Origin: an uncultured Gammaproteobacteria bacterium
Lineage (GTDB): Bacteria > Patescibacteriota > Microgenomatia > Levybacterales > GWA1-39-11
NCBI GenBank assembly: GCA_964472415.1
Contig: CAYYLC010000004.1
Location: forward strand, 33,110 to 97,109
DNA: 64,000 nucleotides
Reading direction: 5' to 3'
The stretch's first letter is position 1, and each line of letters opens with the position of its first letter. Below the pieces are notes generated by a model. The model was not told where the DNA came from. It did not search any database and was given only the letters and a program-made list of their open reading frames with translations. Of the stretch, positions 22,447 to 30,049 are shown piece after piece. The position numbers were made by a program, and so were the translations under genes.

Positions 22447-22722
22447 ATGGATAATTTTTATAATGTAAATCAAGCAGCCTTTATCATGAAAGTCCACCCA
22501 CTTACAATTCGCCGATATATTCGCGAAGGTGTATTGAAGGCGGTACGTCTCGGTGGAAATGTTCGGATAAAAGAACAAGATCTTCAGCATTTCATGCGCG
22601 ACTTTGAACCACGAAGCAAAAAAGAGACCTCGCCATTCCGAAAAATCTCACAACAAAAAAAATTCACTACGGCTGACCCATTTTTGAGGTTAAAAGGACG
22701 AGCAGTAACCGTTGACATATAG
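22447..22722 (+). CDS. excisionase/MerR-type HTH DNA-binding protein (candidate antitoxin)
   Basis: 'AAFIMKVHPLTIRRYIREGVLKAVRLGGNVRIKEQDL' is the Xis-family HTH. It lies 5 bp upstream of the PIN-like ORF. Confidence 0.55.
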   Translation: MDNFYNVNQAAFIMKVHPLTIRRYIREGVLKAVRLGGNVRIKEQDLQHFMRDFEPRSKKETSPFRKISQQKKFTTADPFLRLKGRAVTVDI

Positions 22723-22727
22723 ACCAA

Positions 22728-23150
22728 ATGGCATTATCAAAAAAAGTTATTATAGCTCCGGATGCAATATATTCGTATATTGACAGAGCATCTGATAAAC
22801 ATCAGCAAGCTGTCGCATTTTTCCGCTATTTCTCAGAAGAACATTATCGCGTGTTTGTTGATATATTAAGTATTAATGATGTATACAATGATATATATAA
22901 ACGCATGAGCCAAGACCTAGCAAAAGACTTCCTCCGAATTGTCTCTCTCTCAGATATGAATCTTATATACCCTGATGAAGGGGAAATAAAAGCAGCAGTT
23001 AAAGCACTTATAAACTATCGCTCATTGGATCTTACTTTTTCTCAAGCAGCACTTTCAGTGGTAGCATCTCGAAGAAATATTAATCAAGTCGCAACTTTTC
23101 AAACACTTACTCCCCTTTTTGGACTCCAGACATTCTACCTTCCTATCTAA
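22728..23150 (+). CDS. PIN-domain-like protein (candidate VapC-type toxin)
   Basis: 140 aa. The N-terminal 'KVIIAPDAIYSYIDRASDKHQQA' beta-strand plus Asp, the conserved acidic positions and the size are all PIN-like. It is tightly coupled to the HTH gene. Confidence 0.4.
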   Translation: MALSKKVIIAPDAIYSYIDRASDKHQQAVAFFRYFSEEHYRVFVDILSINDVYNDIYKRMSQDLAKDFLRIVSLSDMNLIYPDEGEIKAAVKALINYRSLDLTFSQAALSVVASRRNINQVATFQTLTPLFGLQTFYLPI

Positions 23151-23256
23151 CTATAGTTAATTGTATAGCAATAATATTTAAAGTATAGCAATATATCTTA
23201 ATTTTATCCTCACGTTGGTTTGGAAAAGAGATTTTTTTTGCTATAATTACCCTATT

Positions 23257-23327
23257 GCCTCTGTAGCTCAACGGCAGAGCGGCGGTTTTGTAAACCGTTG
23301 ATACGGGTTCGATTCCTGTCAGGGGCT
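23257..23327 (+). tRNA. tRNA-Thr (anticodon UGU)
   Basis: Acceptor GCCTCTG/CAGGGGC, D arm GCTC-AACGGCA-GAGC, anticodon stem GCGGT/ACCGT with loop TTTGTAA, T arm ACGGG-TTCGATT-CCTGT. Confidence 0.85.
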
Positions 23328-23399
23328 CACATAATTCAAACTTTGAGATAGCCCCTTTGCTATTAACTCAATATTTTTACTTATATAAAAAGGGCACAT

Positions 23400-24038
23400 T
23401 TATTTCCCTGCTTTTAGCCAATTTGCGCCAGCATATACTATTGGAGAAGACATTACACCCCACATCATTTTAAAAATAAGATACGGAACAGTCATTTGAA
23501 TTATGAAAGCACCAGTAAACTCAGGGGTTAATTTATAAAATGCGAGGAACATGAACACAAATGAGTCAATAGTTAGCGAAAGAAGTGTTGAAGCGTTTGT
23601 TCGTAACCAAAGGAATTTTCCCTCGGTTTGTTTTTTCCAAAAATTAAACGACCATACATCATGAAACTGAGATATCAAAAATGCAACGATTGATGCGGCT
23701 ACTATTCTGGCAGATGTCCCAAATATCGCACTATACTCTGCATCCTGAGTAAATCGACTCGCAGGAGGGAGCCATACAAAAAATATAATGAATGCCAGAA
23801 ACACCGTAAGTGTTACAACTCCTGCAATAACTAACTCCTGAGCCTTTCTCTTACCATACACCTCTTCTACAATATCTGTCATAAGAAATGATAATGGTAC
23901 AATAAGAAACGCTACAGATACCGCAAACGGGCCGAAGGGGATAATTTTCGCACCCAATACATTCATCCCAATCATAAACCCGATAAAAAGCCCAAAGATA
24001 ATAGAAAATCGCATATCGCGTGAAAGAGATAATTTCAT
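23400..24038 (-). CDS. YhhQ/Vut-family (queuosine-precursor transporter-like) membrane protein
   Basis: 212 aa with 6 TM helices. 'GPFAVSVAFLIVPLSFLMTDIVEEVYG' resembles the conserved N-terminal region of YhhQ/DUF165. Confidence 0.5.
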   Translation of the reverse strand: MKLSLSRDMRFSIIFGLFIGFMIGMNVLGAKIIPFGPFAVSVAFLIVPLSFLMTDIVEEVYGKRKAQELVIAGVVTLTVFLAFIIFFVWLPPASRFTQDAEYSAIFGTSARIVAASIVAFLISQFHDVWSFNFWKKQTEGKFLWLRTNASTLLSLTIDSFVFMFLAFYKLTPEFTGAFIIQMTVPYLIFKMMWGVMSSPIVYAGANWLKAGK

Positions 24039-24099
24039 TGCTAGAATTCTAACAAATAGAAGTTAGCTCGACAAGAGAAGATATTTTCTAACTATATTC

Positions 24100-24142
24100 A
24101 AAGACAAAGAAAAAGCCCCGTGCGAAAATATATGCACGGGGC
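24100..24142 (-). terminator. rho-independent terminator (minus strand)
   Basis: A 9-bp GC stem (GCCCCGTGC...GCACGGGGC) with a 10-nt loop, followed on the minus strand by TTTTTCTTTGTCTTT. Confidence 0.55.
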
Positions 24143-24149
24143 TAAAAAT

Positions 24150-24500
24150 AAATTCTCCATGATAGAAATCCTTGATCCGACAGCAATTGTCGGAATAGTA
24201 TATTTCACACGGTTCGTTGGCAAAGAGCTACCTTCGCCTGATGAAGCCTTGCTTTCCCCCACAAGGCGTCGAGATAGCACGAATTGACGTGCTTCGCTCT
24301 GCTAACCTCACGCCTTTCCGGGCTGCGAAGCGATTTGCTTCGCGTTCCAGATATACAGCGCGCTGCTTTTCTGTCATCTGACTCGAGCTATCCTCGAGTC
24401 TCTGACTATACTCATCCCTGGGCGGCAACACACCCTCCTAGTGGTGTTTCTAGGCCAGAACTACTTCTGGCATTCTCAACGAACACAATAATTATATATA
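24150..24500 (-). ncRNA. GC-rich structured segment: candidate unidentified ncRNA or small basic-protein gene (67-aa GTG-start ORF 24228..24431)
   Basis: Local GC is ~52-55% against a ~35% background. There are several perfect hairpins (e.g. GCGAAGC-gattt-GCTTCGC). It is capped by the terminator at 24100..24142. The identity is not resolved. Confidence 0.25.
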
Positions 24501-24557
24501 ATATTATAGGTTTGTCAAGGGGTGAACTGCAGTATCAGAAGGGACACCTTAAGGGAT

Positions 24558-25154
24558 TTATTTATCAAACTCAAAAATACCATAAAAACTCCTTGCATCA
24601 TCAGATCCAGCATATGAATGCAACGGCTGAGGTCTTAGTGTTCGCGCTGGAAGAATGACCTCTTGTTCGGGCTCTATCATCTTCTCTCCAATAATTAACC
24701 CGTTCACTGTCTCGAGAAATTGCCAACTGCGCTCTGATGAGTCCTCATCTGGCAACGACAATCCTTGTTCATCTTTGACATCCAATATGCCATTTTCTTT
24801 CGTAGATATATCCACAAAATGATGCTCGCCATTTACCACCATCCCTATATAGAGCTCTTCGCCATACTTAGTCTTATTATAAGCTGCCTGCACCTCTCCC
24901 TCATCTTCGTTATTAAGCTGAAATTTAAATGTATTTTTATAAGAATTCTCATTTATCCATTCTCCACTTTCCTGAAGGGATTCTAAAAACGGAAGCGCAA
25001 GCGCATCATTCAATACTTTAGCTGCACGCCCTTGAATAGCTTCGCAACTCAATTGATGAGATTCCATGTTCGAATCTGGGGTTGTTTCTCTAGGAGACGA
25101 ATGATCCAAAGCATCGGGAGATACTCTGTATGATAAATCCTCAATTCTAGACAT
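24558..25154 (-). CDS. hypothetical protein (on GC-rich island)
   Basis: 198-aa acidic ORF with a codon composition unlike the surrounding genome. Confidence 0.35.
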   Translation of the reverse strand: MSRIEDLSYRVSPDALDHSSPRETTPDSNMESHQLSCEAIQGRAAKVLNDALALPFLESLQESGEWINENSYKNTFKFQLNNEDEGEVQAAYNKTKYGEELYIGMVVNGEHHFVDISTKENGILDVKDEQGLSLPDEDSSERSWQFLETVNGLIIGEKMIEPEQEVILPARTLRPQPLHSYAGSDDARSFYGIFEFDK

Positions 25155-25354
25155 CTACTTATAGAAAATCACACTCTTCTCCTCTCTGTCAAGAGCTTTT
25201 TCAAAAAAATTTAAACCGAAGACTCCGATTTTTAAGGGATTTAGGAAGAAATAGTGACGGGAAAGATATACAGAAAATTCTGCATAAAACGACTAACGTC
25301 GCACTCCTCCCGCCACTAAAAATGGCACCACCTCAATTCTTTTTGCTTATAGAC

Positions 25355-25789
25355 TCAGACTTTACAAGGTCTAAAACGAACACTCATCAGACAATTTCTA
25401 TCTGGCCGCAAATCACGACATTTAAAATGCCAGATATTTCGCCCTTCCTCTCGCTCACCATTCTGGAACTCACTATTCTGCAACTCAAGAATGGGCTGGA
25501 GAGAAACAGGAACTGGAAGACTATCACCCTCAAGGATGATTATGACTTCAGAAATATACCCCCTCTCATCGAAAACGTGAGGAGAGATCTGCACTGTGTA
25601 TGCTGCACAAGAAACTTGGAATCCTCTCTCAGAAGGCTTCTCATCAAGAAGATTGACAAGATCACCCCCATAAAAAACAGGGATGCTTAGAGACTCGATA
25701 AGAGCCATAGGCGGCTCCCATGGTTCTGTCTGAGGATGGTGCGATGATGATTGCATAGCCTCGGTTGAAATGACCTGCATCGAGTTCAT
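25355..25789 (-). CDS. hypothetical protein (on GC-rich island)
   Basis: 144-aa ORF. It is preferred over the overlapping plus-strand ORF because it is co-oriented with the rest of the island. Confidence 0.3.
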   Translation of the reverse strand: MNSMQVISTEAMQSSSHHPQTEPWEPPMALIESLSIPVFYGGDLVNLLDEKPSERGFQVSCAAYTVQISPHVFDERGYISEVIIILEGDSLPVPVSLQPILELQNSEFQNGEREEGRNIWHFKCRDLRPDRNCLMSVRFRPCKV

Positions 25790-25816
25790 TCTTCTATCCC
25801 TTCTCGCGACAATCGC

Positions 25817-26122
25817 TCATGTATGTCTTGAATCGTACTGATACGTACTAATTCGAAACCATACTCCATACTCTATCAAAGAATATGGTGGTTCAGAATC
25901 AGAGCGCAAGCTCAGCGCTAAATAGTGCTGGAATTGCAATCTTTCACTCTTCTTTATGAATTGTGGCGGGGTTGATTCCTGTTCTACACAGCAGAAAAAA
26001 GATCGTACTATTACCCGACCTCTTATCTTGATAAATTCCCTCCCAACATGTGATTCGTAAAGCAAAAAGTATTGCTCCACGAGAAAAAGACGAGAGATCC
26101 TCCTCCTCTTTTCATGGAGCAA
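25817..26122 (-). CDS. hypothetical protein (on GC-rich island)
   Basis: 101-aa ORF. Confidence 0.25.
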   Translation of the reverse strand: MLHEKRRRISRLFLVEQYFLLYESHVGREFIKIRGRVIVRSFFCCVEQESTPPQFIKKSERLQFQHYLALSLRSDSEPPYSLIEYGVWFRISTYQYDSRHT

Positions 26123-26420
26123 TTTGAAGTGATGTTAATGTACTCTTTCTGATTCGAAATTAATCTTGCAAATTAGAGATAATTTGAATCAAATCGAAAG
26201 TATATTATATACCTTCCTGCAAGATTTATTGCAAATAAGAAATGTGGTGGGAAATAAAAGATTATCTCCTACGAGAACAGCAGATAATAACTATCTCCCA
26301 CCACGAATTTTACCCTCTATGAGGGTACCGTATTTCCTCTGAAAATCGGTGTTATAATGCACCCTTATCTCTTTTTCTAAGAGATAATAAAATCCAGAGC
26401 AAGCTGAATTGTCGACATGT

Positions 26421-26819
26421 TCAGATAGATACGGCAAGGAAAAAGGAATAGCTCCTCCGAAAAAGTCCGGGGAACATTGCCATACCCTGGCTATCAAATC
26501 GTGTCACATATGGGTAGCCACGACCTGATTTTCTCACGAGAACTAACTGGACCTTCTCAAAGAAAAGGGCATGTTGTACCTGAAATTGACTCTGCACTAA
26601 CTGCAGACTGCAATGGATGTCAATCTCCCCTTTCTCCGTCTTGGTCGGCTGAATTGTAAAACTCAGCAGACACTGGGTGAAGGAATGGGATTGGTGAGAT
26701 TGATTTGTGTCTATGCGCAGGTCCCGCGCATAAACCTCTTGGACTATTTCCGAAACTTGCATCGCCTGAGTCTTGTACCGAATCACAACGCCTCCTCGGC
26801 AAACTTCCTTGCCAAACAT
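26421..26819 (-). CDS. hypothetical protein (on GC-rich island)
   Basis: 132-aa ORF. Confidence 0.25.
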   Translation of the reverse strand: MFGKEVCRGGVVIRYKTQAMQVSEIVQEVYARDLRIDTNQSHQSHSFTQCLLSFTIQPTKTEKGEIDIHCSLQLVQSQFQVQHALFFEKVQLVLVRKSGRGYPYVTRFDSQGMAMFPGLFRRSYSFFLAVSI

Positions 26820-27106
26820 TTTGAGACATGATCCCCACAGGCATTGCAGTACTCCTCCTGCATTTGTTGAAAATGATGTTCGTATTCTACGATTGCTCGT
26901 AGGTCACCTTGGACTTTTGTGCTCCATCCACAGGAGCACAAAATACTCCACTTGCCATCCTCAAGTTCTCTCACCTGCACCATTTCGTGTTGTGCAGGCA
27001 CTATGCGTCTTTGAGACACTGATCGACTCCTTTCATTGTAAATACGTGTGATTTCTGCCTCACGAGGAAAACGCATCTCTTGCGTCCTCTTCATGAGGCA
27101 GAACAT
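26783..27106 (-). CDS. hypothetical Cys-containing protein (on GC-rich island)
   Basis: 107 aa with 'CSCGWS' and 'CNACGDH', a possible zinc-binding pair. Confidence 0.3.
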   Translation of the reverse strand: MFCLMKRTQEMRFPREAEITRIYNERSRSVSQRRIVPAQHEMVQVRELEDGKWSILCSCGWSTKVQGDLRAIVEYEHHFQQMQEEYCNACGDHVSKCLARKFAEEAL

Positions 27107-27256
27107 AGAGGGCTGTTAAAGAGCAATTCCCCCAACTAATAACCCATGCAAAACGGATTTATATCGGGGAAATTCAGATGTAAAGTATATCAAATAATTA
27201 GTATTATGTCAATGACTATGGGATTATTTTTGAACGTAAGTCTATAAGATTTTATG

Positions 27257-27328
27257 AGCCGAAGGTGGGATTTGAACCCACGACTTACTCTTTACGAAAG
27301 AGTTACTCTACCTCTGAGTTACTTCGGC
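27257..27328 (-). tRNA. tRNA-Thr (anticodon CGU)
   Basis: Minus-strand cloverleaf. Acceptor GCCGAAG/CTTCGGC, anticodon stem ACTCT/AGAGT with loop TTCGTAA, T arm GTGGG-TTCAAAT-CCCAC. Confidence 0.85.
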
Positions 27329-27906
27329 ACAATAATTTTCAAATTATAACAAAAAATTATCCTTATCTCCTTCTCAAAGAATAATTATTTCTTCGCCTCA
27401 AATTATTGAAAAAGAGAGGAGGTACGTATATACATTCAGCCTCACGAATATATTATCAAATATAGTCAAATTACATCAATTTACAACCGATCTATATCAG
27501 AGACTTGAGGGAATTTTGTTATCAACTTAATTTGAGGTGAACAAAACAATACGAATCACATGTTGAGGAATAATATCTGGCTCCCAAGTCTTTATAACGC
27601 ATCGATTTCCCCTTATATCCAGGTGAGTAGGACTCATCCGCCAACCAAGGCTGACAGATATATGGCCCGTACACTCGAATAAACTGAGATTACTCGTATT
27701 GATTAGTCGTAGAGAAAAACAATTATGCGTTTTAAAGAGCTTTAGAGCCATAGCCAGAATACCCTAGAACCAGAATAAAGTCAAGCAAATATACTGAAAA
27801 TTTTATCTATCATTATTTATATAGAAATATAACTTACAGTATAGTAATAATTCATATTTTTCTATCACATTCTCACAAAAAATATCTATTTTTGCTAAAA
27901 TAACAT

Positions 27907-28996: not shown

Positions 28997-29641
28997 ATGC
29001 CATCAAAATACGTTTTACGAGACTTCAAGCAGGGTGAATACTACCACGTCGCAAATTATGGCGTAGACAAACGGAGTATATTTGAAGATGAAGAGGATTT
29101 TAGAACCTTTCTCTACTATCTAAAAGTATATCTACTTCCCAAAGAAACACTTGAAAAAATGCCCAATCTCCCCAAACGAATGCTCTCAAAAAATAGACAT
29201 TCAGAGGTAGAGCTTCTCTCATATAGCCTCATGCCAAACCATTTTCATTTATTACTGGGCGAAAAAGAGCTCGGCGGAATATCCTTAATCATGAAGCAAC
29301 TCTCAAATGCGTACACCAAGTATTTTAATGAGCGCCACAAACGCTCCGGTAGCTTATTTGAAGGCCCTTTTAAAGCCGCACATGTCAAAAGCGATGAAAT
29401 CATACAAGTCACCCGCTACATTCACCTAAACCCATTCCTTGCGGGACTCGTAGATGATCCTGATAAATACCGCTGGTCTGACTTTCCAACGTACACAAAT
29501 TCGCAAGAGGTGAATATCTCAAACACAAGCCCAGTACTTTCACAATTCAATACGCCAGCTGACTACAAACATTTTGTGCATAACTACATGGACTATGCTG
29601 AAAAAATAAAGGGACTCGACCACGTTTTAATAGATAATTAA
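28997..29641 (+). CDS. IS200/IS605-like Y1 (HUH) transposase family protein (PF01797-like, long form)
   Basis: HUH motif 'LMPNHFHLLL' and a downstream catalytic-Tyr region 'VTRYIHLNP...DPDKYRWSDF'. At 214 aa it is longer than canonical IS200 TnpA. Confidence 0.6.
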   Translation: MPSKYVLRDFKQGEYYHVANYGVDKRSIFEDEEDFRTFLYYLKVYLLPKETLEKMPNLPKRMLSKNRHSEVELLSYSLMPNHFHLLLGEKELGGISLIMKQLSNAYTKYFNERHKRSGSLFEGPFKAAHVKSDEIIQVTRYIHLNPFLAGLVDDPDKYRWSDFPTYTNSQEVNISNTSPVLSQFNTPADYKHFVHNYMDYAEKIKGLDHVLIDN

Positions 29642-29836: not shown

Positions 29837-30049
29837 TTACGAATCTGTTTTTTGCTGAATACCCAAAAGGTATAATACTGCTTCTTTTTTATACCGTCTA
29901 TCACCACGAGAATTGATACGAATCGCAGGGAGCTTGCCACGCTTACCCCATCGTTTAATTGTTAGTGGAGAGACTCGCAATAATTCGGCAACTTCACGGA
30001 CAGTGAGGAGATCTGGTAATTCTGCTATTGATATCTTTTGATTAGCCAT
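29837..30049 (-). CDS. excisionase/MerR-type HTH DNA-binding protein
   Basis: 'LLTVREVAELLRVSPLTIKRWGKRGKLPAIRINSRGDRRYKKEAV' is an Xis-family HTH, the same family as 22447..22722. Confidence 0.55.
   Translation of the reverse strand: MANQKISIAELPDLLTVREVAELLRVSPLTIKRWGKRGKLPAIRINSRGDRRYKKEAVLYLLGIQQKTDS

What the first reader, a model, noticed from the sequence alone, without database searches (positions are those of the whole stretch)
24100..27200. Compositionally foreign (~48-52% GC) island between tRNA-Thr(UGU) and tRNA-Thr(CGU)
The background is ~35% GC. From ~24.1 to ~27.2 kb the GC rises sharply; for example 26461..26520 is 48%.

All plausible ORFs (198, 144, 101, 132 and 107 aa) are on the minus strand, have no recognisable domains and use a different codon style.

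The island is bracketed by two tRNA-Thr genes (23257..23327 and 27257..27328) and a YhhQ-like transporter gene. No integrase, transposase or phage structural gene is visible. It may be a decayed integrative element or a horizontally acquired cassette of unknown function.
Basis: seen in the sequence. Interest (0 to 1): 0.6.

Follow-up and report, generated by a model that had tools for sequence, protein, structure and literature searches.

The report
Hypervariable tRNA-adjacent slot with folded RNAs
The supposed foreign island is this bacterium's version of a fast-changing slot found after the same tRNA gene in all recovered relatives, holding one inherited fast-evolving gene, several orphan reading frames and two very strongly folded transcripts of unknown role.

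Summary
The composition claim is overstated. The window is 39.4% GC, not 35%. The block is 42.5%, with only local 46-51% peaks, and its tetranucleotide usage is ordinary.

Seven related Levybacteria-like genomes all have a 1.7-2.7 kb slot between tRNA-Thr(CGU) and yhhQ. Each carries a GC-rich section, but the content differs. The window's version is a mosaic:
- The 198-aa ORF is a vertically inherited, fast-evolving, apparently leaderless gene.
- The 144-aa ORF is probably a real orphan gene.
- The 107/97-, 132- and 101-aa ORFs have no homologues and no codon periodicity. They lie in the most thermodynamically folded 1.2 kb of the 64 kb, behind a near-perfect promoter.
- A 385-nt promoter-to-terminator unit (24100-24484) is probably a small structured RNA.

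There is no integrase, no att repeat and no phage or plasmid similarity.

Best reading: a flexible, recombination-remodelled slot, not a decayed integrative element. Whether the folded parts are non-coding RNAs or hairpin-gated small-protein mRNAs is unresolved, because no close relative has been sampled.

Alongside it I found a covariation-supported, 6S-like RNA with no Rfam match (27576-27749).

The parts
27256..27328 (-). tRNA-Thr(CGU). Its 3' end is the fixed right-hand border of the variable slot.
   Evidence: ARAGORN and Rfam. Similarity to all sisters stops at the tRNA.
27184..27212 (-). Sigma-70-type promoter (TTGACA-17-TATACT with a TG extension, 11 of 12) that heads region B.
   Evidence: Promoter scan, second-best site of the 5-kb region.
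25950..27177 (-). Region B: about 1.2 kb of exceptionally folded minus-strand RNA, 43% GC overall with 46-48% peaks at 26400-27150.
   Evidence: Mean z of 150-nt windows is -3.4 on the minus strand and -2.3 on the plus strand. 64% of its windows reach z<=-3, against 2% in the rest of the window. It is the lowest 1.2-kb running mean of the whole 64 kb.
27053..27103 (-). A 23-pair hairpin that encloses a GAGGA Shine-Dalgarno-like motif and the AUG at 27076.
   Evidence: dG is -34.6 kcal/mol with z -8.4; the plus-strand version gives -30.7. Gene callers start a 97-aa product at this AUG (P0002).
26783..27106 (-). ORF of 107 aa (97 aa from the AUG at 27076), with a CxC...CxxC motif. Coding status is uncertain.
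   Evidence: Only itself in 5.8 billion clustered proteins. No viral relative. Codon-periodicity chi2 is 3.7/5.3, within the null range. AF2 pLDDT is 53.
26421..26819 (-). ORF of 132 aa (open frame of 160 codons) that overlaps the previous ORF by 37 nt. Coding status is uncertain.
   Evidence: No gene on record with this product. No viral or PDB relative. Chi2 is 8.7. The open frames of region B are longer than in shuffles (P=0.003 for the top two).
26071..26123 (-). Second, paralogous hairpin with the same core (CAUGAA/CUCGUG, same U.G wobble and A.C mismatch) and a GAGGAGGAGGA run, but no start codon at the matching place.
   Evidence: dG is -30.8 on the minus strand against -20.2 on the plus strand, z -7.3. 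There are only two copies of the motif in the window and none in the other 100 loci. A -10-region repeat lies 985 nt from the first promoter (D4).
25817..26122 (-). ORF of 101 aa with a TTG start. Doubtful; probably not a gene.
   Evidence: Markov score is -0.17 and chi2 is 5.3, in the null range. No homologue found.
25355..25789 (-). ORF of 144 aa (141 aa as called). Probably a real orphan gene.
   Evidence: Codon periodicity chi2 is 17.1 (P=0.02 against null open frames). Folding z is about 0. Only itself among 1.84 billion representatives, plus a spurious repeat protein.
25157..25192 (-). Promoter TTGACAGA...TTTTCTATAAGTA, which ends 2 nt before the ATG of the 198-aa gene. This implies a leaderless mRNA.
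   Evidence: The same promoter with the same spacing stands before the first slot gene of L013.
24558..25154 (-). The 198-aa acidic protein (pI 4.4): the clade-conserved, fast-evolving first gene of the slot.
   Evidence: blastp to the L101 slot ORF gives E=1.3e-11 (32% over 142 aa) and to L097 gives 2e-4. A profile of three sister proteins hits it at E=8.8e-13. GC is host-like at 40% with GC3 0.34. Chi2 is 21.8.
24491..24518 (-). Perfect sigma-70 promoter (TTGACA-16-TATAAT, 12 of 12) that heads region A.
   Evidence: Best site of the promoter scan.
24100..24484 (-). Region A: a promoter-to-terminator unit of about 385 nt, 49% GC, multi-branched with an 8-bp closing helix. It is a candidate small structured RNA and may carry a 49-aa basic ORF. 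The intrinsic terminator lies at 24100-24150.
   Evidence: MFE is -154.5 kcal/mol with z -5.9; the plus strand is 20 kcal/mol weaker. Mean window z is -3.9. Its open frames are no longer than chance (P=0.33). Chi2 of the 67-aa ORF is 1.9. No Rfam family matches at E<=10 beyond terminator-like noise.
23400..24038 (-). yhhQ (Vut_1, queuosine-precursor transporter): the fixed left-hand border of the slot.
   Evidence: Pfam E=7e-45. 65-79% identical proteins in many Microgenomates assemblies, one named Candidatus Levybacteria.

Best explanation
The 3.1-kb stretch is not one foreign insertion. It is this genome's version of a hypervariable slot that lies between the 3' end of tRNA-Thr(CGU) and the start of yhhQ in every related Levybacteria-like (Microgenomates, Patescibacteria) genome I could recover.

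Shown:
- The two borders are fixed.
- The content differs from genome to genome.
- In every genome the slot's first gene, and in the window all its likely units, read in the same direction as the tRNA and yhhQ. Four sisters also carry one divergent TrpR-like gene.
- Every version has a GC-enriched section.

In the window the slot is a mosaic of minus-strand units:
1. Region B: a near-consensus promoter drives about 1.2 kb of extremely folded RNA. It holds two overlapping orphan frames (97/107 and 132 aa). A 23-pair hairpin locks up the ribosome-binding site and start codon of the first frame.
2. A degenerate second copy of the same promoter-and-hairpin module, followed by a doubtful 101-aa frame.
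3. A probable orphan gene of 144 aa.
4. The 198-aa gene, which is vertically inherited, fast-evolving and leaderless.
5. Region A: a 385-nt unit with a perfect promoter and an intrinsic terminator, very folded and without a meaningful ORF. It is most likely a small structured RNA.

Inferred:
- The slot is remodelled by recombination between its conserved flanks, which adds and replaces cassettes next to the tRNA. The 2.06 kb from 25193 to 27255 is the window-specific addition.
- The mild GC excess comes from selection for RNA structure rather than from a foreign donor.
- Where small proteins are made, their translation is gated by the hairpins.

The cellular role is unknown. Fast-evolving acidic and basic small products in a variable slot fit an interaction or conflict function (host, phage or toxin-antitoxin-like) better than housekeeping.
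For: Synteny and variable content:
- Seven sisters keep the order Y1_Tnp-like, BacA, (CAP protein), tRNA-Thr(CGU), slot, yhhQ (L013, L092/93, L096, L097/98, L100, L101, L102).
- Their slots are 1.7-2.7 kb and 41-46% GC, with inner blocks of 50-59% GC.
- Similarity to the window stops at the tRNA and resumes inside yhhQ. No DNA similarity to regions A or B, or to 25200-25950, was found in 100 loci.

Vertical inheritance:
- The 198-aa gene has sister homologues and a shared promoter.
- L013 and L096 share their GC-rich block at 72-82% identity, similar to their flanking genes at 75-77%. The high GC is therefore retained over time.

Native k-mer signature.

Transcription units: a 12/12 promoter, an 11/12 promoter and an intrinsic terminator, all on the minus strand and at the borders of the folded regions.

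Folding excess and strand asymmetry.

Coding status: clear periodicity for the 198- and 144-aa ORFs and none for the 107-, 132-, 101- and 67-aa ORFs. Open frames in region B are longer than chance.

No mobile-element markers.
Against: - No relative closer than 79% YhhQ identity exists in the collections. For regions A and B there is therefore no alignment, no covariation and no dN/dS, and their function as RNA or protein is untested.
- The codon-periodicity test is not decisive. Genuine TrpR-like genes in the sisters score only 6-9.7.
- The long open frames of region B (P=0.003) argue for present or recent coding, which conflicts with the periodicity and Markov results.
- Recombination between the flanks is inferred from the pattern alone.
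- High GC3 (0.40-0.52) in the orphan frames is also what recent horizontal transfer would give.
- Promoters are consensus matches only; there are no expression data.
Confidence: 0.6

Rival explanations
1. Region B, and perhaps the 101-aa stretch, is a large non-coding structured RNA of 1.2-1.4 kb. Together with region A it would form an RNA-gene cluster with the neighbouring tRNA and 6S-like RNA. On this reading the ORFs are accidental.
For: - It is the most folded 1.2 kb of the window, with minus-strand asymmetry from G.U pairs.
- It has its own strong promoter.
- The 107/97-, 132- and 101-aa ORFs show no codon periodicity and have negative host-trained coding scores.
- The two ORFs that were searched (107 and 198 aa) match only themselves in 5.8 billion protein clusters.
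- Its k-mer signature is native, so the poor coding score is not explained by foreign origin.
- It is GC-enriched in an AT-rich genome and lies next to two RNA genes.
Against: - Its open frames of 160 and 110 codons on the transcribed strand are longer than in 99.7% of dinucleotide shuffles.
- A Shine-Dalgarno-like motif stands 8 nt before an AUG.
- The two frames overlap by 37 nt, as in coupled genes.
- Its helices are long and nearly perfect, unlike the junction-rich architecture of known large RNAs.
- No Rfam family matches at E<=10.
- No homologue exists, so there is no covariation evidence.
- The GC-rich blocks of the sisters are at least partly protein-coding: in-frame indels, third-position changes and AGGAGG sites.
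Confidence: 0.3
2. Region B is a small-protein operon, for example toxin-antitoxin-like or another conflict module. It would make a 97-aa zinc-ribbon-like protein and a 132-aa basic protein, with translation gated by a hairpin that sequesters the ribosome-binding site. The second module would be a decayed duplicate.
For: - The frames are long and overlapping.
- A GAGGA motif and an AUG sit inside the 23-pair hairpin, and gene callers choose that start.
- The first frame has a CxC...CxxC motif.
- The sisters' slots hold small genes of similar sizes (about 108 plus 119-155 aa; 93-aa CSD-like; 70-aa zinc-ribbon) that are conserved at protein level.
- The second hairpin lacks a start codon and its frame lacks coding signal, as expected of a decayed copy.
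Against: - No toxin, antitoxin or defence domain is found.
- No codon periodicity.
- AF2 confidence is low.
- The two frames have no homologue in any sister, the 107-aa frame matches only itself among 5.8 billion clustered proteins, and neither has a relative in viral contigs.
- A -34.6 kcal/mol hairpin would block translation almost completely unless it is processed.
Confidence: 0.3
3. One reading: a horizontally acquired cassette or a decayed integrative element inserted at a tRNA gene.
For: - The window-specific 2.06 kb (25193-27255) abuts the 3' end of tRNA-Thr(CGU), the classical integration site.
- Its frames are orphans with GC3 of 0.40-0.52, against 0.33 in host genes.
- The slot content differs among the sisters.
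Against: - No integrase or recombinase in any of six frames.
- No repeat of the tRNA 3' end.
- No match to 50,697 phage or 72,556 plasmid records, and the two ORFs searched against viral contigs found no relative.
- Tetranucleotide usage is native, and GC is only 3 points above the window.
- The slot is occupied in all relatives, and part of the window's content is vertically inherited.
Confidence: 0.15
4. The orphan stretches are non-functional debris: pseudogene remnants of earlier cassettes that are being eroded.
For: - The 101-aa and 144-aa frames are in the same frame, separated by a single stop.
- The second promoter-and-hairpin module looks degenerate.
- L013 carries a truncated copy of a gene that is intact in L096, so decay does occur in this slot.
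- The frames lack codon periodicity.
Against: - Debris is not expected to be the most stably folded RNA of 64 kb with strand-specific G.U pairing.
- Debris is not expected to keep 12/12 and 11/12 promoters and a canonical terminator at the exact borders.
- No remnant similarity to any sister gene was found. The one lead, a TrpR-like fragment, failed the profile test.
Confidence: 0.12

Closest known systems
Flexible (additive or replacement) genomic islands and hypervariable regions next to tRNA genes, as described in comparative genomics of free-living bacteria (from my own knowledge of the literature, e.g. work of Rodriguez-Valera and colleagues)
   Same: Fixed conserved flanks with one at a tRNA 3' end. 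The content differs between related genomes and is enriched in orphan genes. One lineage shows an extra block added right next to the tRNA.
   Different: - No integrase, transposase or other mobility gene, and no att repeats.
- The comparison here is between species or genera (YhhQ 65-79% identical), not between strains.
- The content is GC-enriched and unusually rich in RNA secondary structure.
- One gene of the slot is conserved throughout.
Structured non-coding RNAs found as GC-rich 'intergenic' stretches in AT-rich genomes (the discovery logic used by the Breaker laboratory), including large RNAs that often sit next to tRNA genes such as GOLLD and ROOL (from my own knowledge)
   Same: GC enrichment over an AT-rich background. 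No convincing ORF in region A. Own promoter and terminator. A strong folding excess. A tRNA neighbour.
   Different: - No Rfam family, including GOLLD and ROOL, matches at E<=10.
- No homologues, hence no covariation.
- Region B has long open frames, and its helices are long and near-perfect rather than ornate multi-junction folds.
Translational operator hairpins that enclose a ribosome-binding site and start codon (for example the MS2 replicase operator, RNA thermometers and type I toxin mRNAs; from my own knowledge)
   Same: The GAGGA motif and the AUG of the first region B frame lie inside a stable hairpin. A second, paralogous hairpin keeps the same core with compensatory outer-stem changes.
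   Different: At 23 pairs and -34.6 kcal/mol it is far more stable than known thermometers or operators. No binding protein or antisense RNA has been identified. Only two copies are known, and both are in this genome.
tRNA-targeting integrative elements and prophage remnants
   Same: Position at a tRNA 3' end, and orphan content.
   Different: The recombinase, the att repeats, the foreign k-mer signature and similarity to any mobile element were all tested and found absent.

Membership tests
tRNA-targeting integrative element / genomic island | Tyrosine or serine recombinase (integrase), or its remnant, next to the tRNA | tested here: not met
   No Pfam family at E<=0.1 in any of six frames of 24040-27255. 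The ORFs have no Pfam, PHROG or NCBIfam hit.
tRNA-targeting integrative element / genomic island | Direct repeat of the tRNA 3' end (attL/attR) at the far border | tested here: not met
   The 22-nt 3' part of tRNA-Thr(CGU) occurs once in the window, even with up to 3 mismatches. No flanking direct repeat was reported.
tRNA-targeting integrative element / genomic island | Atypical composition relative to the host | tested here: inconclusive
   GC is 3.1 points above the window (about 1.5 SD), and GC3 of the orphan frames is 0.40-0.52 against 0.33. Tetranucleotide usage, however, falls at percentiles 15-88.
tRNA-targeting integrative element / genomic island | Empty site in some relatives | tested here: not met
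   All seven sisters have the site occupied by 1.7-2.7 kb of other content.
Flexible genomic island / hypervariable slot | Conserved flanking genes with non-homologous content between related genomes | tested here: met
   The tRNA-Thr(CGU) and yhhQ flanks align at 70-87% identity. Content is shared only within subsets of sisters, and only the 198-aa gene is shared with the window.
Flexible genomic island / hypervariable slot | Variation between strains of one species | not testable with these tools
   The only other records of this genome are 100% identical (L001, L002). The next relative has 79% YhhQ identity.
Known structured RNA families (Rfam 15) | A match to a covariance model | tested here: not met
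   Only tRNAs reach gathering scores. At E<=10 there are only sub-threshold hits, all far below their gathering scores; those at the left end overlap the terminator hairpin.
Functional structured RNA (generic) | Folding energy beyond dinucleotide shuffles, on the transcribed strand | tested here: met
   Region A has z -5.9. Region B has a mean window z of -3.4 and is the lowest 1.2 kb in the 64 kb. The hairpins have z -7 to -8 with a minus-strand advantage.
Functional structured RNA (generic) | Covariation in an alignment of homologues | not testable with these tools
   No homologue of regions A or B was found in 100 loci, in phage records or in plasmid records.
Type II toxin-antitoxin module | Two small adjacent or overlapping genes | tested here: met
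   The 107/97-aa and 132-aa frames overlap by 37 nt.
Type II toxin-antitoxin module | A recognisable toxin or antitoxin domain | tested here: not met
   No Pfam, PADLOC or NCBIfam hit.

The most novel reading that the evidence does not exclude
The GC-enriched, hairpin-dense units of this slot are a new kind of rapidly diversifying structured RNA or RNA-gated micro-gene cassette. This covers regions A and B in the window and the modular leader with lineage-specific hairpin inserts in the sisters. Selection would keep the cassettes GC-rich in an AT-rich genome. They sit beside an RNA-gene cluster (tRNA-Thr and a 6S-like RNA) in Levybacteria-like CPR bacteria. At least region A would be a new structured non-coding RNA class.
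Probability: 0.25. Interest if true: 0.6.

Novelty: new member of a known kind. Interest (0 to 1): 0.4.

Why it matters
CPR/Patescibacteria genomes are tiny and are thought to be streamlined. A slot that is rebuilt in every lineage yet always kept, always transcribed in one direction and always GC-rich points to a function under diversifying pressure. That pressure could come from host attachment, phage conflict or regulation, in organisms where almost nothing is known about regulation.

If regions A and B are RNAs, they add to the very short list of non-coding RNAs known in CPR bacteria. If they encode proteins, they are examples of very young or very fast-evolving micro-genes with unusual translational gating.

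In practical terms, the case shows that a local GC rise in an AT-rich genome should not be read as horizontal transfer without a k-mer test and a synteny test.

Tried and rejected
1. rRNA, intron, RNase P, tmRNA, SRP, GOLLD, ROOL or any other Rfam family in the block: no match at E<=10. ARAGORN finds no tmRNA.
2. A pseudogene of a known protein: six-frame Pfam is empty.
3. A remnant of the sisters' TrpR-like gene at 26139-26339 (+). A pairwise hit (E=1e-4 in a small database) was not reproduced by a four-sequence profile. Rejected.
4. By-eye homology of the 144-aa ORF to the sisters' 108-115-aa proteins, and of region A's small ORF to their CSD-like proteins: no support from blastp or profiles.
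5. Internal duplication of the island: only the two hairpins and a 23-nt promoter-region repeat are shared.
6. The hairpins as dispersed repeats (REP or MITE-like) linked to the nearby IS200-like Y1 gene. There are no further copies in the window or in the other 100 loci, and the Y1-like gene is syntenic in all sisters.
7. Integron cassettes. The block holds no integron integrase, and by reading the sequence the hairpins lack the AAC/GTT attC ends and sit at ORF starts rather than ends.
8. Protein structure. Single-sequence AF2 gave pLDDT 36 (198 aa) and 53 (97 aa), too low for fold search.
9. PDB sequence search for the 132-aa and 107-aa ORFs and for a profile of the 198-aa family: nothing.
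10. Species-representative genomes (GTDB) searched with YhhQ: no close relative, at most 47% identity.
11. GC of paired against unpaired positions in the MFE folds does not separate regions A and B from ordinary genes. Uninformative.
12. An MAFFT alignment of the two hairpins was not structurally consistent, so no covariance model was built.

Full report
**Observation**

The annotation-level facts hold.
- tRNA-Thr(UGU) lies at 23257-23328 (+) and tRNA-Thr(CGU) at 27256-27328 (-).
- A Vut_1/YhhQ gene lies at 23400-24038 (-).
- None has a Pfam, PHROG, PADLOC or NCBIfam hit, and no Pfam family is found in any of the six frames.

The compositional claim is overstated.
- The window is 39.4% GC and the block is 42.5%. 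That is about 1.5 SD above the mean of 3.1-kb windows, and 6% of such windows are at least as GC-rich. The richest region lies elsewhere.
- Only 300-bp sub-windows reach 46-51% (24150-24449; 26400-27150). They are separated by host-like or AT-rich stretches.
- Tetranucleotide usage across the block is ordinary, at percentiles 15-88.
- A host-trained 3-periodic Markov model does score four of the five ORFs negatively. The 'different codon style' is therefore real.

**Provenance and relatives**

The window is identical to an ENA contig and a Logan contig (L001, L002), so no population variation is available.

YhhQ has many 65-79% identical relatives in Microgenomates assemblies, one of them named Candidatus Levybacteria. 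Species-representative genomes hold nothing close.

I recovered seven sister loci through BacA and YhhQ: L013, L092/L093, L096, L097/L098, L100, L101 and L102.
- All keep the order Y1_Tnp-like, BacA, (CAP-domain protein), tRNA-Thr(CGU), slot, yhhQ.
- In all of them the stretch from the tRNA 3' end to the yhhQ start is 1.7-2.7 kb and 41-46% GC overall, with an inner block of 50-59% GC. It is filled with small ORFs, none with a Pfam hit except a divergent TrpR-like gene in four sisters.
- Similarity to the window stops at the tRNA and resumes inside yhhQ. nhmmer finds nothing similar to the window's content in 100 loci.

**What is shared**

The 198-aa ORF is the exception.
- It matches the first slot ORF of L101 (E=1.3e-11, 32% over 142 aa) and of L097 (2e-4).
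- A profile of three sister proteins hits it at E=8.8e-13.
- Its promoter (TTGACAGA...TTTTCTATAAGTA) ends 2 nt before the ATG, which implies a leaderless mRNA. The same promoter is conserved in L013.
- Its GC (40%, GC3 0.34) and its codon periodicity are host-like.

It is therefore a vertically inherited, fast-evolving gene. Relative to the sisters, the window carries an extra 2.06 kb (25193-27255) between the tRNA and this gene. It also has a short GC-rich unit where the sisters have 0.8-1.3 kb of small genes.

**What the sisters' blocks are**

L013 and L096 align through their GC-rich block at 72-82% identity, comparable with their flanking genes.
- Parts of the block are clearly coding. A roughly 70-aa zinc-ribbon ORF has an AGGAGG site, an in-frame 3-nt indel and third-position changes. 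A 93-aa CSD-like ORF is intact in L096 and truncated in L013.
- Parts look like a modular leader RNA, with conserved blocks interrupted by unrelated, lineage-specific hairpins.
- GC3 of these genes is 0.50-0.60, against 0.17-0.32 for the first slot gene.

High GC is thus kept over evolutionary time within the slot. This argues against reading it as a fresh import.

**Anatomy of the window's slot (minus strand)**

The two best promoter matches of the 5-kb region sit exactly at the heads of the two GC-rich parts: 27212-27184 (11/12 with TG) and 24518-24491 (12/12). An intrinsic terminator closes the block at 24150-24100.

A sliding MFE scan of the whole window shows the following.
- Region B (25950-27150) is the most stably folded 1.2 kb of the 64 kb. 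Its mean z is -3.4 on the minus strand and -2.3 on the plus strand. 64% of its windows reach z<=-3, against 2% elsewhere.
- Region A (24100-24484) has a mean window z of -3.9. As a whole it has z -5.9 and is 20 kcal/mol more stable than its complement.
- The stretch holding the 198- and 144-aa ORFs is unremarkable.

Two paralogous hairpins of 23-24 pairs (27053-27103 and 26071-26123) share a core (CAUGAA/CUCGUG), the same U.G wobble and the same A.C mismatch, and they differ compensatorily in the outer stem.
- Both are more stable as minus-strand RNA: -34.6 and -30.8 kcal/mol, against -30.7 and -20.2 on the plus strand.
- There are no other copies in the window or in the other 100 loci.
- The first encloses a GAGGA motif and the AUG at 27076 that gene callers use (P0002).
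- The second has the purine run but no start codon at the matching place.

**Coding or not**

The evidence conflicts.

For coding:
- The open frames in region B (160 and 110 codons) exceed 99.7% of dinucleotide shuffles, and those of the 198/144 stretch exceed all shuffles.
- The two region B frames overlap by 37 nt.

Against coding:
- A nucleotide-by-codon-position chi-square gives 21.8 (198 aa) and 17.1 (144 aa), within the range of real genes.
- The same test gives only 3.7/5.3 (107/97 aa), 8.7 (132 aa), 5.3 (101 aa) and 1.9 (67 aa in region A). These fall within the range of accidental open frames and below 95% of pieces of native genes.
- The caveat is that genuine TrpR-like genes of the sisters score only 6-9.7.

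Other observations:
- Region A's frames are no longer than chance (P=0.33).
- The 198- and 107-aa ORFs match only themselves among 5.8 billion clustered proteins. The 144-aa ORF matches only itself, plus a spurious repeat protein, among 1.84 billion representatives.
- The 132-aa ORF is not on record as a called gene.
- Viral contigs, phage and plasmid records and PDB sequences give nothing.
- Single-sequence AF2 models are of low confidence.

**Interpretation**

The best-supported reading is a hypervariable, tRNA-adjacent slot that has been maintained throughout this clade. It is not a decayed integrative element: there is no recombinase, no att repeat, no foreign k-mer signature and no empty site in any relative.

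Within it I judge the units as follows.
- The 198-aa gene is native.
- The 144-aa ORF is probably a real orphan gene.
- Region A is most likely a small structured RNA gene, at about 60%.
- Region B is either a hairpin-gated small-protein operon or a large non-coding RNA, about equally likely. A lesser chance is that it is eroding debris.
- The 101-aa ORF is probably not a gene.

Remodelling by recombination between the conserved flanks is inferred from the pattern, not shown. Function is unknown. Fast-evolving acidic (pI 4.4-4.9) and basic (pI 9.3-11.7) small products in a slot that every lineage rebuilds suggest an interaction or conflict role.

**Side finding**

Between the tRNA and BacA, at 27576-27749 (-), lies a roughly 175-nt element with its own promoter. 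It is conserved at 75-83% identity in all seven sisters, more than the neighbouring genes.
- RNAalifold gives 52 pairs, of which 96.6% are paired.
- 12 pairs carry compensatory double changes, against 3.6 in shuffles (0 of 500 shuffles reach the observed value) and at most 3 in the slid controls.
- The fold is a long closing rod, a large internal loop and two apical hairpins, which is 6S-RNA-like.
- No Rfam family matches at E<=10, even in a 241-nt search.
- A full-text search found no paper that links 6S RNA with CPR bacteria.

**Verdict**

- The thing is a new member of a known kind, a flexible tRNA-adjacent slot. It has an unusual, unexplained excess of RNA structure and two candidate new RNA or micro-gene units.
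- Interest is moderate. It would rise if closer relatives or expression data showed that regions A or B are functional RNAs.

Noticed in passing
window 27576-27749 (-), promoter about 27756-27784: A conserved structured RNA of about 175 nt with its own promoter, found in all seven sister genomes as well (8 in all). It has 52 pairs, 96.6% paired, and 12 pairs with compensatory double changes (0 of 500 shuffles reach this; slid controls give at most 3). The fold is 6S-RNA-like: a long closing rod, a central internal loop and two apical hairpins. No Rfam family matches at E<=10.
   Followed up: partly
L013:6800-7080 (-), with the matching parts of L096, L100 and L101 (alignment columns 880-1460): After the first slot gene the sisters share a promoter (TGTGATAGAAT) and a leader. 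The leader has conserved blocks (GTTCTTTAAAAACTTGCGA; GCAGGTGGC...GCCATCTGCAAAGATGAG) interrupted by unrelated lineage-specific hairpin inserts. One helix keeps pairing through a G.U to A-U change. It looks like a modular structured leader RNA upstream of small CSD-like and zinc-ribbon genes.
   Followed up: partly
window 27053-27103 and 26071-26123 (-): Two paralogous hairpins of 23-24 pairs, 985 nt apart. They share a core, a wobble and a mismatch, and their outer stems differ compensatorily. Each follows a similar -10 region (TATACTTT). There are only these two copies in the window and none in the other 100 loci.
   Followed up: yes
window 27329-27575 compared with sisters, e.g. L092:4902-6110 and L013:7748-9373: Six of the seven sisters carry a CAP-domain (cysteine-rich secretory protein family) gene of 391-541 aa between tRNA-Thr(CGU) and the 6S-like RNA. 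The window and L102 lack it. This is a second variable point of the neighbourhood.
   Followed up: no
window 28997-29641 (+) and 29837-30049 (-): An IS200-like Y1_Tnp-domain gene (214 aa) and an HTH_17/MerR-like gene (70 aa) sit next to BacA. The pair is found in the window and in five of the seven sisters at about 74% DNA identity; in the other two the gene or its HTH_17 partner lies beyond the contig end. They are therefore resident (domesticated or RAYT-like) genes and not a mobile IS.
   Followed up: no
window 22447-23328: Downstream of yhhQ the window has tRNA-Thr(UGU) and a two-gene HTH_17 plus 140-aa module (toxin-antitoxin-like in layout, with no toxin domain found). Most sisters have instead a beta-lactamase-like gene and a giant Kelch/fn3 protein of about 2,390 aa. 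This is a synteny break at the other side of yhhQ.
   Followed up: no
L002 and L093 (both from run SRR8449813): The same sequencing run holds both the window's genome and the L092-type sister (YhhQ 79% identical). Two related Levybacteria-like populations with different slot contents therefore coexist in one sample.
   Followed up: no
window 25790-26122 (-): The 101-aa and 144-aa ORFs lie in the same reading frame, separated by a single TGA stop about 25 nt upstream of the 144-aa ATG. The window's long ORFs show that the standard genetic code is in use, so this is not UGA recoding. It could mark a decayed longer gene.
   Followed up: no
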